This document shows positions 27,009-29,285 of a DNA stretch of 64,000 nucleotides, in pieces (the first letter of the stretch is position 1; the number at the start of each line of letters is the position of its first letter). Origin of the DNA: Bacteroidales bacterium (GTDB taxonomy: Bacteria > Bacteroidota > Bacteroidia > Bacteroidales > PWNQ01); NCBI GenBank assembly GCA_003557725.1, contig PWNQ01000113.1, positions 5,758-69,757 of the forward strand, in the 5' to 3' direction. The translations under genes were made by a program, and so were the position numbers. The notes below the pieces were generated by a model. It was not told where the DNA came from, ran no database searches, and saw only the letters and a program-made list of their open reading frames with translations.

Positions 27009-29285
27009 TCAGAATGCAGCCACCTCTTTAAGCAGGGTTCCCGGGGTTTTCAGCAACTCCGGATGCTTATCCACGTGTATCATGGCAGATACGGACAAGT
27101 CTTTAGCGGTCCACTGGGCCACCCCTTTCACCACGGTTTGTTTAGCAATGAACACATGTCCCATTTTAATGGATATCTCAGGGATGGAACCTGCAGCCTC
27201 CTTAAACCGCTGAACTGCCTCTTGCAAAGACTCCCGGGCATGGTGGGGGTGCTTAAAGGCATTTTCCACCTCTTCAGTGACTTCATACACCTGCTGCATG
27301 GTCATAGGGTTCTTGGATATTCCCATGCGATTATTCTCACGGGTGGGAGCTTTTTCCGGGTGATAAAAGATAAACCCGGCCTCGTCCAGTATGTTAAGCA
27401 GCTCATCATGTGCTTTGAGGATCACCGCTTCATTATCTGTATTAAAATATGCATATACAGGCAAGTGACGATTAAGGGTGCGTTTTTTATAGTCGGTATT
27501 GATGGAATTGAAAGAGACATACTGTGAGAACGCGTTTTGCAGGATATATATCTGATCTCTCAGGTGCCTGATCTCCTTTTGGTACTGATGTGTGGCCTGG
27601 GTCAGTTTATTTTCATAGTACTGATAGAACTGCTTCATGAAGTGGTTCTTGGGCCCGGCAGCCACCAGTCGTTTTCCTTCATCGGTATCGGTAAAGTTCT
27701 CAAAGTTCTCAATAAACTTTTCGGCCAGGGTCTGGGCTTGTTTATCCCAGGCATCCGGGTATTTCCATGTACGTCTGGGGTTAAGGATGCTGTTATCTTC
27801 CAGCCCTGCCACTTTTTTAGGTATGCTTAATCCGAAGATGGGCACTTCTTCATATTCTTCCTCATCGATGGAGTCGTTAAGGATAGCCCGGATAATTTTA
27901 CGGGTTTCGGGCAGTGATATGCGTTGGCCCACGCCATAGGCTCCGCCGGTCCATCCGGTATTCACCAGATATGCTGTTGCGCCGTGTTCCCTCATCTTAT
28001 TGGCCAGTGCCTGGGCGTATACTGTGGGGTGCAGCAGCAAAAATGCCGCTCCGAAAGCAGAGGAAAAGGTGGGCAACGGCTCACGTATGCCTCGCTCTGT
28101 ACCGGCCAGCTTGGCCGTATAGCCACTCATAAAATAATACTTGGCCTGGTCTTCTGTAAGCCGGGAAACCGGTGGAAACACTCCAAAAGCATCCGCAGTG
28201 AGAAAAATGATCTTTCGCGGATGAGGCCCCTTGGACACGGGCCGTACAATGTTATCAATATGATAGATGGGATATGATACCCGGGTGTTTTCTGTCTTGG
28301 AGTCATCATTAAAATCAATGGCACCGGTGCTGGAATCATATGCCACATTTTCCAGCAGGGCATCCCGCCGGATAGCATTGTATATATCCGGCTCCTTCTC
28401 GGCACTCAGGTTGATACACTTGGCATAACACCCACCTTCAAAGTTAAATATCCCTTCTTTATCCCACCCATGCTCATCATCACCAATGAGATACCGCTGT
28501 GGATCAGCCGAAAGGGTGGTCTTTCCTGTTCCACTGAGCCCAAAAAAGATAGCCGTATCCCCGTTTTTACCCATATTGGCAGAGCAGTGCATAGAGGCCA
28601 TTCCATCCAGGGGAAGGTAGTAGTTCATAATGGAAAAGAACCCTTTCTTTATCTCCCCTCCATACCATGTTCCTCCCACCACTGCCATACGTTCTTTTAT
28701 GTTAAAAGCCACAAATACATCACTGTTCAGGCCCTGCTCCATCCATTGGGGGTTGGTAGCCTTACAGGCATGAAGCATAACAAAATCCGGCTCGAAATTC
28801 TCCAGGTCCTCAGCGGTGGGCCGGATAAACATATTTTTTACAAAGTGAGCCACCCAGGCAATTTCGGTGATCACACGGATCTTTAACCGGGTGTTCCCGT
28901 TGGCACCACAATAGGCATCCATAACATAGAGCGTCTTGCCATTGAGCTGCTTTTGACTAATGCCCCGCAAGTGCTCCCATACCTCATGGGAGATGGGCCG
29001 GTTATCAGAGCCTTTACGCTTTGGATCTGCCCACCAGATCTTATCCACCGATTCATCTTCCTTAACAATATACTTGTCTTTGGGCGAACGCCCGGTGAAG
29101 ACCCCCGTATCTACAGCTACGGCTTGGGTATCCGTAACAAACCCTTTCTCATAACCTTCCTGTGCCGGATCAGTCTCATGACGGAACAGTGTCTCATAAT
29201 CCAGGTTGTAATAGATCTTTTTCACTTCTCGGATGCCATACCGACTCACATCAGGAATGGCAATATCTGCTATCTTTTTTGACAT
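27009..29285 (-). CDS. pckA: ATP-dependent phosphoenolpyruvate carboxykinase fused to a 212-aa C-terminal extension of unknown function
   Basis: Kinase-1a motif [13 protein letters not shown] plus the usual PckA blocks. The canonical terminus ...RLVAAGPK is followed without a stop by [14 protein letters not shown]... through to the TGA at 27009-27011. Confidence 0.9.

What the first reader, a model, noticed from the sequence alone, without database searches (positions are those of the whole stretch)
27009..27647. pckA reads through its canonical C-terminus into a 212-codon extension of unknown function
ATP-dependent PEP carboxykinases of the E. coli type are about 540 aa and end ...AAGPKL. 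Here the frame reads ...KRLVAAGPK and then continues [40 protein letters not shown]... for 212 more codons with no stop, giving 758 aa in total. The extension starts with a heptad-like Q/Y/K-rich stretch. It then looks like a compact alpha/beta domain (…[26 protein letters not shown]…[22 protein letters not shown]…) in which I recognise no motif. An in-frame ATG at 27636-27638, four codons past the junction, could also allow separate translation. The sequence could therefore be a fusion of a gluconeogenic enzyme to a new regulatory or partner domain, or a recently lost stop codon.
Basis: partly seen in the sequence, partly recalled or inferred. Interest (0 to 1): 0.7.

Follow-up and report, generated by a model that had tools for sequence, protein, structure and literature searches.

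The report
PckA fused to unknown C-terminal module
A whole clade of uncultured sediment Bacteroidales makes its PEP carboxykinase as one 758-residue protein, carrying a conserved helical stalk and a small globular domain that no database describes; this is a real, old gene fusion, not a lost stop codon.

Summary
ORF 27009-29285 (-) encodes 758 aa: a complete ATP-dependent PckA (aa 1-546) that runs without a stop into 212 more codons.

It is not an artefact or a recent stop loss.
- 83 of 84 related loci, about 80 species-level MAGs and mostly Bacteroidales, have the same in-frame junction (…RLVAAGP[KQ]N-x-x-MKQ[YF]Y…) and a 210-222 aa extension.
- Eight further metagenome contigs also carry it.
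- Every PckA at least 67.5% identical over its last 117 aa is fused. Every one at 61.5% or below ends canonically (…AAGPQL*).
- Fused PckAs are monophyletic in an NJ tree.
- Extension dN/dS is 0.03-0.09.

The extension has three parts: a ~47-residue amphipathic heptad-like helix, an ultra-conserved linker motif ([23 protein letters not shown]), and a ~155-aa α+β domain (AF2 pLDDT 90). No Pfam, NCBIfam, PDB or BFVD match is significant.

The domain is homologous (hhalign 99.9%) to the C-terminal domain of a broad unannotated family. That family places a coiled coil and this domain behind varied N-termini (TIR, STAND NTPase, VWA, RRM, CSD, HSP20, kinase).

My best reading, which is inferred, is a non-catalytic self-association or adaptor module that oligomerises or docks PckA. 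It is a new variant of a known enzyme, of moderate interest.

The parts
27009..29285 (-). Single 758-codon ORF (plus TGA stop at 27009-27011) encoding the PckA-extension fusion.
   Evidence: The exact protein is present in an NCBI record on an 88-kb contig.
27648..29285 (-). Complete ATP-dependent PEP carboxykinase domain, aa 1-546. It carries the P-loop GLSGTGKTT (28515-28541), IGDDEHGW (28464-28487) and NTGW (27951-27962), and ends ...RLVAAGPK (27648-27671).
   Evidence: PF01293 at E 1.5e-208. NF006819 and TIGR00224 score above their curated cutoffs and reach the model ends. It aligns with E. coli PckA 1aq2 over 11-539 of 540.
27636..27647 (-). Junction, N-H-F-M (aa 547-550). It takes the place of the canonical 'L-stop' of unfused PckAs. 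The Met (27636-27638) is invariant in all 84 fused sequences.
   Evidence: Junction strings in 84 loci. Invariant M4. Unfused relatives end ...AAGPQL*.
27504..27644 (-). Long amphipathic, heptad-like α-helix (extension residues 2-48, aa 548-594). It is a predicted coiled-coil stalk.
   Evidence: AF2 gives a continuous helix 2-48, with pLDDT 84-93 for the first 30 residues.
27459..27575 (-). Most conserved segment of the extension (extension residues 25-63). The consensus is E..RL[RK][33 protein letters not shown]. It spans the end of the helix, the linker and the start of β1. The window's [24 protein letters not shown] lies at 27498-27569.
   Evidence: Invariant or nearly invariant columns in the 84-sequence alignment A4. 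The AF2 linker at residues 41-57 has lower confidence (pLDDT 55-81).
27012..27476 (-). Globular two-layer α+β domain (extension residues 58-212, aa 604-758). The element order is β1-α1-β2-β3-α2-α3-β4-β5-β6 followed by three short C-terminal helices. It carries the conserved C-terminal motif LSIS..IH.DKNP.LLK.P ([12 protein letters not shown] at 27042-27077).
   Evidence: AF2 pLDDT is 90-98 over the domain. It is homologous to the C-terminal domain of a free-standing family: hhalign probability 99.9%, E 4.3e-32, 159 columns. An HMM search finds 460 representative proteins. Nothing significant turns up in PDB or BFVD.

Best explanation
**What it is.** This is a genuine, ancient gene fusion. In the ancestor of a clade of uncultured, mostly anoxic-sediment Bacteroidales, pckA became joined in frame to a ~210-codon gene. 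The canonical 'L-stop' is replaced by N-x-x, followed by what looks like the old start Met. The product is an active, E. coli-type ATP-dependent PEP carboxykinase. Its C-terminus continues into a ~47-residue coiled-coil-type stalk, a very conserved linker, and a non-catalytic α+β (RRM/ferredoxin-like) head domain from an undescribed domain family.

**How it most likely works.** The stalk probably pairs with the stalk of another subunit, so an enzyme that is normally monomeric becomes dimeric or oligomeric. The head domain would cap that assembly or dock it to a partner. The effect would be on PckA's quaternary state, local concentration or location, not on its chemistry.

**Shown.**
- The ORF and the completeness of PckA.
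- Clade-wide conservation and monophyly of the fusion.
- Purifying selection on the extension.
- The fold class of the head domain.
- Homology to the free-standing 'variable N-terminus, coiled coil, this domain' family.

**Inferred.**
- Coiled-coil pairing.
- The non-catalytic adaptor or assembly role.
- Origin of the fusion by stop loss.

**Confidence by claim.** About 0.95 that the fusion is real and selected, about 0.8 that it arose once, and about 0.45 for the assembly or adaptor role. The single figure given is a compromise across these.
For: **The ORF and the enzyme**
- The ORF and a full PckA are established.

**Conservation of the fusion**
- 83 of 84 loci from about 80 species genomes are fused in frame with the same junction.
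- Extension length is 210-222 aa in all 84.
- In the metagenome scan, 8 of 8 PckA tails at least 67.5% identical are fused, and 38 of 38 at 61.5% or below end canonically.
- The 85 fused PckAs are monophyletic against 30 unfused ones in an NJ tree.
- Extension dN/dS is 0.026-0.094 in 14 independent close pairs. The adjacent PckA codons give 0.007-0.068 in the 13 pairs where dS was finite.
- The extension diverges faster than PckA, with median identity 43% against 79%, yet it is always kept.

**Structure of the extension**
- AF2 predicts a continuous helix 2-48 plus a confident α+β domain.
- The helix shows a heptad-type hydrophobic pattern, with the invariant M4 at a core position.
- No constellation of invariant acidic, His or Cys residues suggests a catalytic site. 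Invariant residues are M, Y, Q, N, R, P, G, I, D, L and E. In the free-standing family the near-invariant residues are Y, G, S, Q, G, K, L and P.

**The wider family**
- hhalign gives 99.9% between the extension and the free-standing family.
- That family has a coiled-coil middle and diverse N-termini: NB-ARC/STAND NTPases, VWA, TIR, cytidylate-kinase-like, RRM, HSP20 and CSD.
- From established knowledge, TIR domains and STAND NTPases act through oligomerisation. This fits a portable assembly or adaptor module.
- From established knowledge, E. coli-type PckA is monomeric.
Against: - No oligomeric state was or could be computed here. Only monomer AF2 was available, with no PAE or multimer output.
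- The heptad signal is moderate: 39 of 2000 shuffles reach it. The first 11 residues have a broad aromatic face that could instead pack on PckA.
- The most conserved segment is the linker motif, which AF2 models with low confidence and for which I have no explanation.
- Fold matches include ligand-binding ACT-like domains, so an allosteric sensor role is not excluded.
- Free-standing relatives lie in integrase, transposase, toxin-antitoxin or TIR contexts. This hints at a conflict-system role that is hard to transfer to a housekeeping enzyme.
- I could not check whether these genomes carry a second, unfused pckA.
Confidence: 0.55

Rival explanations
1. The head domain is an allosteric sensor. 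It is an ACT/RRM-like small-molecule-binding domain that regulates PckA through the helical stalk. This would resemble the regulatory domains of aspartokinase, or the signalling helices of cyclases run in reverse order.
For: Foldseek lists aspartokinase ACT domains, NikR C-terminal domains, PII-like proteins and NIPSNAP among its weak matches. The linker between stalk and domain is ultra-conserved, which recalls transducer elements. From established knowledge, PckA sits at a metabolic branch point where regulation would make sense.
Against: All these fold matches are non-significant: E is at least 0.03 and TM normalised to the query is 0.2-0.28. There is no Pfam ACT hit. No conserved ligand-type pocket residues were identified. 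The same module sits behind very different N-terminal domains, which argues for a generic role and not a PckA-specific metabolite sensor.
Confidence: 0.2
2. There are two products. The invariant Met, four codons past the junction, serves as an internal start, so cells make a free ~24-kDa protein as well as, or instead of, the 85-kDa fusion. The fusion would then be mostly a matter of gene layout.
For: Met4 is invariant in 84 of 84 sequences while the flanking linker residues vary. In L001 an in-frame TGA replaces the Gly codon of AAGP. The downstream ORF there is intact, begins at this Met, and is still under purifying selection against its closest relative (dN/dS 0.066).
Against: - 91 of 92 loci have no stop, and the frame is always preserved. 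Neither would be needed for two separate proteins.
- Synonymous sites around the junction are as free as elsewhere (relative codon entropy 0.89 against 0.91), and no conserved upstream motif exists.
- Position -3 is T in 82% of sequences.
- There is no promoter-like site on the minus strand.
- Met4 lies at a hydrophobic core position of the heptad pattern, which gives a structural reason for its conservation.
Confidence: 0.12
3. The extension is an artefact or a very recent accident: a sequencing or assembly error, or a recently lost stop codon reading into non-coding or unrelated DNA.
For: Nothing beyond the prior expectation that PckA ends at ...AAGPKL. The single L001 contig shows that a stop can occur at the junction.
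Against: The same fusion appears in independent assemblies from many studies and habitats. Length is constant. dN/dS is 0.03-0.09. The AF2 fold is confident. The extension is homologous to an independent protein family.
Confidence: 0.01
4. The head domain is an enzyme: a divergent class III nucleotidyl-cyclase or palm-like domain preceded by a signalling helix. PckA would then be fused to a second-messenger synthase.
For: The top Foldseek hits for both models are adenylyl and guanylyl cyclase catalytic domains (E 1.1e-3 to 1e-2, probability up to 0.99). The order 'coiled coil, conserved linker, domain' resembles cyclases. One free-standing relative lies next to a Pycsar/CBASS-type TIR protein and one is fused to such a TIR domain.
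Against: TM is 0.31-0.33 with rmsd around 13 Å and 10% identity. There is no Pfam Guanylate_cyc or GGDEF hit and no PADLOC cyclase hit. The position after β1 that would hold a metal-binding Asp is not conserved: the window has N, and relatives have S, K, P, Q or A. Neither subfamily has an invariant acidic pair.
Confidence: 0.04

Closest known systems
ATP-dependent PEP carboxykinase PckA, E. coli type (TIGR00224 / PF01293; PDB 1AQ2)
   Same: Residues 1-546 are a full-length member. They score above the curated cutoffs and align with E. coli PckA over 11-539 of 540, with the P-loop and the IGDDEHGW and NTGW motifs intact.
   Different: The canonical enzyme is about 540 aa, ends ...AAGPKL-stop and is monomeric (established knowledge). 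This one continues for 212 residues into a stalk and a head domain. Public records simply name such proteins 'phosphoenolpyruvate carboxykinase (ATP)'.
Unannotated family of 250-550-aa 'hypothetical proteins' with the layout variable N-terminus, coiled coil, then this α+β domain (e.g. P0156 from a Rhodocyclaceae MAG, P0200 from Chryseobacterium gleum)
   Same: The C-terminal ~155-aa domain is homologous (hhalign 99.9%, E 4e-32; reciprocal HMM hits at 1e-17 to 1e-24). It is preceded by a helical coiled-coil segment and sits at the extreme C-terminus.
   Different: The free-standing proteins have a near-invariant GSW(F/W)KK motif before β3 that the PckA-fused subfamily lacks. They lack the [19 protein letters not shown] motif. 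They lie in mobile or accessory contexts, or next to or fused with TIR, STAND and VWA domains. None has a described function.
TRADD-N domains (RRM-like adaptor of bacterial and metazoan conflict systems; Kaur et al. 2021, PMC8195603; PDB 1F3V)
   Same: Both are two-layer α+β sandwiches of RRM/ferredoxin type. TRADD-N is among the weak Foldseek matches (probability 0.69, rmsd 5.3 Å over 130 columns). The free-standing relatives have a Gly-Ser in the β2-β3 turn, which the paper names as the TRADD-N hallmark. Like TRADD-N, they are combined with TIR, STAND and VWA-type domains.
   Different: There is no sequence-profile relationship to human TRADD-N (hhalign 0.2%). The Foldseek E-value of 0.05 is not significant. 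The PckA-fused subfamily has lost the Gly-Ser. The domain here is about 155 aa, with extra strands and C-terminal helices, and is terminal where TRADD-N is typically internal.
Class III adenylyl and guanylyl cyclase catalytic domains with an upstream signalling helix
   Same: These are the best, though non-significant, structural matches. The order coiled coil, conserved linker, βαββαβ-type domain is similar.
   Different: The catalytic Asp pair is not conserved, there is no Pfam hit, and TM is about 0.3.

Membership tests
ATP-dependent PEP carboxykinase (PckA) | Full-length match to curated family models above their cutoffs | tested here: met
   NF006819 scores 910 bits (cutoff 745), TIGR00224 scores 815.7 (cutoff 590), and PF01293 has E 1.5e-208.
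ATP-dependent PEP carboxykinase (PckA) | Nucleotide-binding P-loop and the conserved catalytic-region motifs | tested here: met
   GLSGTGKTT at aa 249-257, IGDDEHGW at 267-274 and NTGW at 442-445 are identical or near-identical to E. coli PckA in the alignment. Catalysis itself was not tested.
ATP-dependent PEP carboxykinase (PckA) | Canonical size of about 540 aa, ending ...AAGPKL-stop | tested here: not met
   The protein is 758 aa and the frame continues after AAGPK. Unfused relatives end AAGPQL*. This is an architectural departure and does not argue against PckA activity.
Undescribed 'coiled coil + C-terminal α+β domain' family (no database name) | Profile-level homology of the ~155-aa C-terminal domain | tested here: met
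   hhalign of A2 against A4 gives probability 99.9%, E 4.3e-32 over 159 columns. The HMM of the extension finds 460 representative proteins, 137 of them at E<1e-10.
Undescribed 'coiled coil + C-terminal α+β domain' family (no database name) | Near-invariant GSW[FW]K motif in the β2-β3 turn | tested here: not met
   The motif is present in at least 90% of 137 free-standing members. In the window it is replaced by P-T-R-E-N, and it is variable in other fused sequences. The PckA-fused proteins therefore form a divergent subfamily.
Coiled coil | Long uninterrupted helix with a heptad a/d hydrophobic pattern | tested here: met
   AF2 predicts helix 2-48. Conserved hydrophobic columns are spaced 3-4 residues apart with one stutter, and power peaks at period 3.5-3.6 (39 of 2000 shuffles reach the period-3.5 power).
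Coiled coil | Actual pairing, and the oligomeric state | not testable with these tools
   Only monomer AF2 without PAE was available. This needs AF-multimer or SEC-MALS.
TRADD-N domain | RRM-like two-layer α+β sandwich with a four-stranded antiparallel sheet (PMC8195603) | tested here: inconclusive
   The model has a β1α1β2β3α2..β4 core plus extra strands. Foldseek against 1f3v_A gives E 0.05, probability 0.69 and target-normalised TM 0.34.
TRADD-N domain | Conserved 'uS' (Gly-Ser) motif in the β2-β3 turn (PMC8195603) | tested here: not met
   The motif is absent from the window protein and from the fused subfamily. It is present in the free-standing relatives.
TRADD-N domain | Detectable sequence-profile relationship | tested here: not met
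   hhalign of A2 against human TRADD-N (sequence verified against 1f3v_A) gives probability 0.2%. This is a weak test, because only a single target sequence was used and no bacterial TRADD-N profile was at hand.
Class III nucleotidyl cyclase | Match to the cyclase family model and a conserved metal-binding Asp pair | tested here: not met
   There is no Pfam or PADLOC hit. There is no invariant acidic pair. Foldseek TM is 0.31-0.33 with rmsd about 13 Å.
Glycoside hydrolase family 57 (weak Pfam hit) | Score at or above the Pfam gathering threshold | tested here: not met
   The score is 19.8 bits against a cutoff of 21.2, covering only model positions 166-268 of 291. There is no structural support.
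ACT domain | Family-model match or a significant fold match | tested here: not met
   There is no Pfam ACT hit. Foldseek hits to aspartokinase ACT regions have E of at least 0.04.

The most novel reading that the evidence does not exclude
The module may be a portable, conflict-system-type adaptor: RRM/TRADD-N-like and otherwise attached to TIR, STAND NTPase and VWA domains in mobile islands. On this reading it has been 'institutionalised' onto a core metabolic enzyme. In these Bacteroidales, PckA would then be built into a regulated higher-order assembly (filament, condensate or membrane-docked complex), or it would couple central carbon flux to an immune-like oligomerisation switch. It would also define a new, widespread protein-assembly domain family.
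Probability: 0.15. Interest if true: 0.8.

Novelty: new variant of a known kind. Interest (0 to 1): 0.55.

Why it matters
From established knowledge of Bacteroides physiology, PckA is the CO2-fixing entry point from PEP to oxaloacetate in the succinate/propionate fermentation of Bacteroidales, and it is among their most abundant enzymes.

A clade-wide, strongly selected C-terminal stalk-and-head module implies that quaternary structure, localisation or regulation of this enzyme differs in a whole group of sediment anaerobes. Current annotation hides this, because records say only 'phosphoenolpyruvate carboxykinase (ATP)'.

The finding also exposes a sizeable domain family with no Pfam model, no solved structure and no name. 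It has 460 representative clusters at E ≤ 0.001 in a library clustered at 50% identity, and its partners include immune-type domains. The PckA fusion gives that family a tractable handle: an enzyme with an easy assay attached to the unknown module.

Tried and rejected
- **Family libraries.** Pfam, NCBIfam, PADLOC and PHROGs scans of the extension gave only sub-threshold noise: GH57 at 19.8 bits (below the 21.2 cutoff), CowN, Mu Gam and phrog_30115.
- **PDB by sequence.** Profiles A1, A2 and A4 gave nothing meaningful. The hits were a USP25 coiled coil and designed repeat proteins.
- **Foldseek.** Two models were searched against PDB and one against BFVD. No hit had E<1e-3.
- **Cyclase, ACT, GH57 and TRADD-N memberships.** All were considered and none was accepted (see the membership tests).
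- **Third word-index protein search.** It returned only 7 proteins although the genome scan found 93 species. That index evidently under-samples these long proteins.
- **dN/dS against the window.** dS between the window and its nearest relatives is saturated, so close pairs among the relatives were used.
- **Free-standing precursor.** I looked downstream of the nearest unfused pckA genes and found none. A convergent peptidase-like gene lies there.
- **Viral contigs.** A scan for the free-standing family gave one hit, so the family is not predominantly viral.
- **Second copy of the domain.** None exists in the window or in any locus.
- **Rfam.** There were no hits in the window.
- **Promoter and terminator scan.** Nothing exceeded chance.
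- **Source record.** An exact look-up of the window protein's contig failed.
- **Literature.** Searches found no report of this fusion.
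Full report
**1.

The minus-strand ORF at 27009..29285 encodes 758 aa (sequence). Residues 8-546 match PckA family models to their last position: NF006819 scores 910 bits against a cutoff of 745, TIGR00224 scores 815.7 against 590, and PF01293 has E 1.5e-208. The protein aligns with the E. coli PckA crystal-structure sequence over residues 11-539 of 540. 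The P-loop GLSGTGKTT and the IGDDEHGW and NTGW motifs are intact.

After ...RLVAAGPK the frame continues [15 protein letters not shown]... for 212 codons, up to TGA at 27009-27011.

**2. The extension is neither an error nor a recent stop loss**

A search with the extension found four relatives at 40-43% identity. Three of them are visibly joined to a PckA C-terminus.

A scan of one genome per species (185,579 species) found 93 genomes encoding a relative, and 80 loci were retrieved. Nearly all are uncultured Bacteroidales MAGs from soda-lake sediments, groundwater, sulfidic springs or caves, meromictic lakes and digesters.

In 83 of 84 loci the extension lies in the same frame as a full PckA and directly abuts it, with no stop. 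The junction is stereotyped...EEG[QK]RLVAAGP[KQ]-N-x-x-M-K-Q-[YF]-Y.... All 84 extensions are complete ORFs of 210-222 aa.

I ran an independent metagenome scan using only the last 117 residues of the PckA part as the query. All 8 hits at least 67.5% identical continue into the extension. All 38 hits at 61.5% or below end canonically, for example ...AAGPQL*. In a neighbour-joining tree of the C-terminal 330 PckA residues, the 85 fused sequences form one clade that contains no unfused sequence. This pattern points to a single old fusion event.

**3. The extension is a selected protein sequence**

dS between the window and its nearest relatives is saturated. I therefore used 14 independent close pairs among the relatives. 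The extension has dN/dS of 0.026-0.094. The adjacent last 120 PckA codons give 0.007-0.068 in the 13 pairs where dS was finite.

Across the clade the extension has diverged much further than the enzyme. Median pairwise identity is 43% (minimum 30%) for the extension, against 79% (minimum 72%) for PckA. It is nevertheless never lost.

Thirteen columns are invariant in 84 sequences: M4, Y8, Q32, Y43, N47, R60, P63, G163, I190, D193, L198, P202 and E208.

**4. Anatomy of the extension**

AlphaFold2 with a 32-sequence alignment gives pLDDT 90.1. The model has three parts:
- a continuous helix over residues 2-48;
- a lower-confidence linker, with 10-residue block means of 71, 55 and 81 over residues 31-60;
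- a confident α+β domain over residues 58-212, in the order β1-α1-β2-β3-α2-α3-β4-β5-β6 followed by three short helices.

The conserved hydrophobic columns of the helix fall at 3/4, 7/8, 10/11, 15, 18, 26, 29, 33-36, 40, 43/44 and 46. This is a 3-4 spacing with one stutter. Power peaks at period 3.5-3.6, and 39 of 2000 shuffles reach the period-3.5 power.

The most conserved part of the whole extension is the end of the helix and the linker, E..RL[RK][24 protein letters not shown]. I cannot explain why this segment is so constrained.

**5. What the head domain is**

Nothing annotated matches it.
- Pfam, NCBIfam, PADLOC and PHROGs give only sub-threshold noise.
- Profile searches of PDB sequences give nothing meaningful.
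- Foldseek with either model finds no PDB or BFVD hit below E 1e-3.

The best Foldseek matches are class III cyclase catalytic domains, with TM 0.31-0.33 and rmsd about 13 Å. After them come NIPSNAP, TRADD-N, ACT and designed ferredoxin folds. The fold class is therefore a ferredoxin/RRM-like two-layer sandwich, with no identifiable superfamily.

The domain is not an orphan, however. An HMM of the extension, searched against 1.84 billion representative proteins, finds 460 hits at E ≤ 0.001 and 137 at E<1e-10. Most of those listed are proteins of roughly 210-550 aa (median 327) in which this domain is the C-terminal ~155 residues. Profile-profile comparison of that family with the 84 PckA extensions gives probability 99.9% and E 4.3e-32 over 159 columns.

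The family has these features:
- Every member that carries a source name is called 'hypothetical protein', apart from P0215, named a CspA-family cold-shock protein after its N-terminal CSD. None has a Pfam model covering this domain.
- A coiled-coil segment precedes the domain (weak hits to myosin tail and CENP-F zipper models).
- About 90% of members have N-termini that match no Pfam model. The rest carry NB-ARC/STAND NTPases, VWA, a CAP12/Pycsar-type TIR, a cytidylate-kinase-like domain, RRM, HSP20 or CSD.

The genomic contexts I could read were:
- integrase or transposase islands;
- a position beside a PemK toxin gene;
- a position directly downstream of a TIR protein in Chryseobacterium gleum;
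- the end of a cox cluster.

The family is rare in viral contigs, with one hit. Compared with these relatives, the PckA-fused subfamily has lost the near-invariant GSW[FW]KK motif before β3 and has gained the [13 protein letters not shown] motif.

**6. How it most likely works (inference)**

The recurrent unit is 'coiled coil plus head domain', placed at the C-terminus of otherwise unrelated proteins. Several of its partners (TIR, STAND NTPases) are domains that, from established knowledge, act by oligomerising.

Neither subfamily conserves a catalytic-looking set of residues. E. coli-type PckA is a monomer (established knowledge).

My preferred reading is therefore that the extension is a non-catalytic self-association or adaptor module. 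The stalks would pair, the head would cap the pair or dock it to a partner, and PckA would become dimeric, oligomeric or localised.

My confidence differs by claim:
- about 0.95 that this is a real, selected fusion;
- about 0.8 that it arose once;
- about 0.45 that it has the assembly or adaptor role specifically.

**7. Rival explanations**

*Allosteric sensor domain (ACT-like).* This is possible but rests only on non-significant fold matches. It sits poorly with the promiscuous partners of the module.

*Two products by internal initiation at the invariant Met.*
- For: Met4 is invariant. In L001 (GCA_003557765.1) an in-frame TGA replaces the Gly codon of AAGP, and the downstream ORF remains intact and constrained.
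- Against: 91 of 92 loci keep one open frame. Synonymous sites at the junction are as free as elsewhere (0.89 against 0.91). Nothing is conserved upstream, and position -3 is T in 82% of sequences. No promoter-like site is present. Met4 sits at a heptad core position.

*Divergent nucleotide cyclase.* This is rejected on the lack of conserved metal-binding residues and of any model match.

*Artefact or recent stop loss.* This is refuted by sections 2 and 3.

**8. TRADD-N as a lead, not a filing**

Kaur et al. 2021 (PMC8195603) describe TRADD-N as an RRM-like adaptor with a conserved Gly-Ser in the β2-β3 turn, combined with effectors in bacterial conflict systems. The free-standing relatives have exactly such a Gly-Ser, and TRADD-N is a weak Foldseek match.

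Against this, hhalign to human TRADD-N gives 0.2%. The PckA-fused subfamily lacks the motif. The domain here is larger than TRADD-N and is terminal. I record it as an untested possibility for the wider family.

**9. Origin of the fusion**

Unfused relatives end ...GPQ-L-stop. Fused proteins read ...GP[KQ]-N-[KQHER]-[FYM]-M.... The spacing fits an ancestral downstream gene that started at this Met only a few bases after the pckA stop, with the stop lost by substitution. This is inference.

The nearest unfused pckA genes I retrieved have no such neighbour downstream, so no intermediate state was found.

**10. Verdict**

This is a new architectural variant of a well-known enzyme, carrying a member of an undescribed domain family. 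The literature I could search does not report it, and public records label such proteins simply as PckA.

It is of moderate interest. The fusion is solidly real, the mechanism is open, and it offers a convenient experimental entry into an unnamed and fairly large protein family.

Noticed in passing
L001 5983-5985 (PWNO01000264.1, GCA_003557765.1): This is the one exception among 84 loci. An in-frame TGA sits exactly where relatives have the Gly codon of ...AAGPQ..., splitting pckA (546 aa) from a 211-aa ORF that starts at the invariant Met. It could be a sequencing error, a real nonsense mutation tolerated because the Met can reinitiate, or readthrough. The downstream ORF is still constrained (dN/dS 0.066 against L071).
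   Followed up: partly
L087 5160-6876 (Chryseobacterium gleum JAJQWT010000002.1): A free-standing relative of the extension domain (P0200, 291 aa) lies 5 nt downstream of a CAP12/Pycsar-type TIR protein. Another family member is directly fused to such a TIR domain. This may be a two-gene defence-like unit and has not been described.
   Followed up: partly
L085/L086 1087-9431; L138 1639-7764; L137 4188-5828: Free-standing family members sit in accessory regions: next to phage-type integrases, IS110 and DDE transposases, an N6/N4 DNA methyltransferase, a PemK toxin and runs of ORFan genes.
   Followed up: no
L015, L019, L020 (records titled Saccharibacteria, Deltaproteobacteria, Saprospiraceae): Contigs binned to unrelated phyla carry the Bacteroidales-type fused pckA, with the PckA part 74-75% identical to the window. 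They are probably mis-binned contigs and not evidence of horizontal transfer.
   Followed up: no
window 27459-27575 (-): The linker motif RL[RK][20 protein letters not shown] is more conserved than either the PckA C-terminus nearby or the head domain. AF2 gives it the lowest confidence, and nothing explains the constraint. It may be an interface.
   Followed up: partly
window 1-64000: No Rfam family reaches its gathering score anywhere in the 64-kb window: no tRNA, rRNA, riboswitch or other known RNA.
   Followed up: no
protein MBN2730057.1 (P0005, 757 aa) and a JGI 773-aa member of the same cluster: Public annotation names these fused proteins just 'phosphoenolpyruvate carboxykinase (ATP)', with no flag for the extra ~210 residues. 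Fragments of the extension on short contigs are called 'hypothetical protein'.
   Followed up: yes
P0154-P0192: One subfamily of the free-standing proteins is about 299 aa, has an N-terminal DR[LM]xxRRRxxQPES motif, and is of Rhodocyclaceae type. It appears as dozens of close variants in many sequencing runs, which suggests a mobile or rapidly spreading gene.
   Followed up: no
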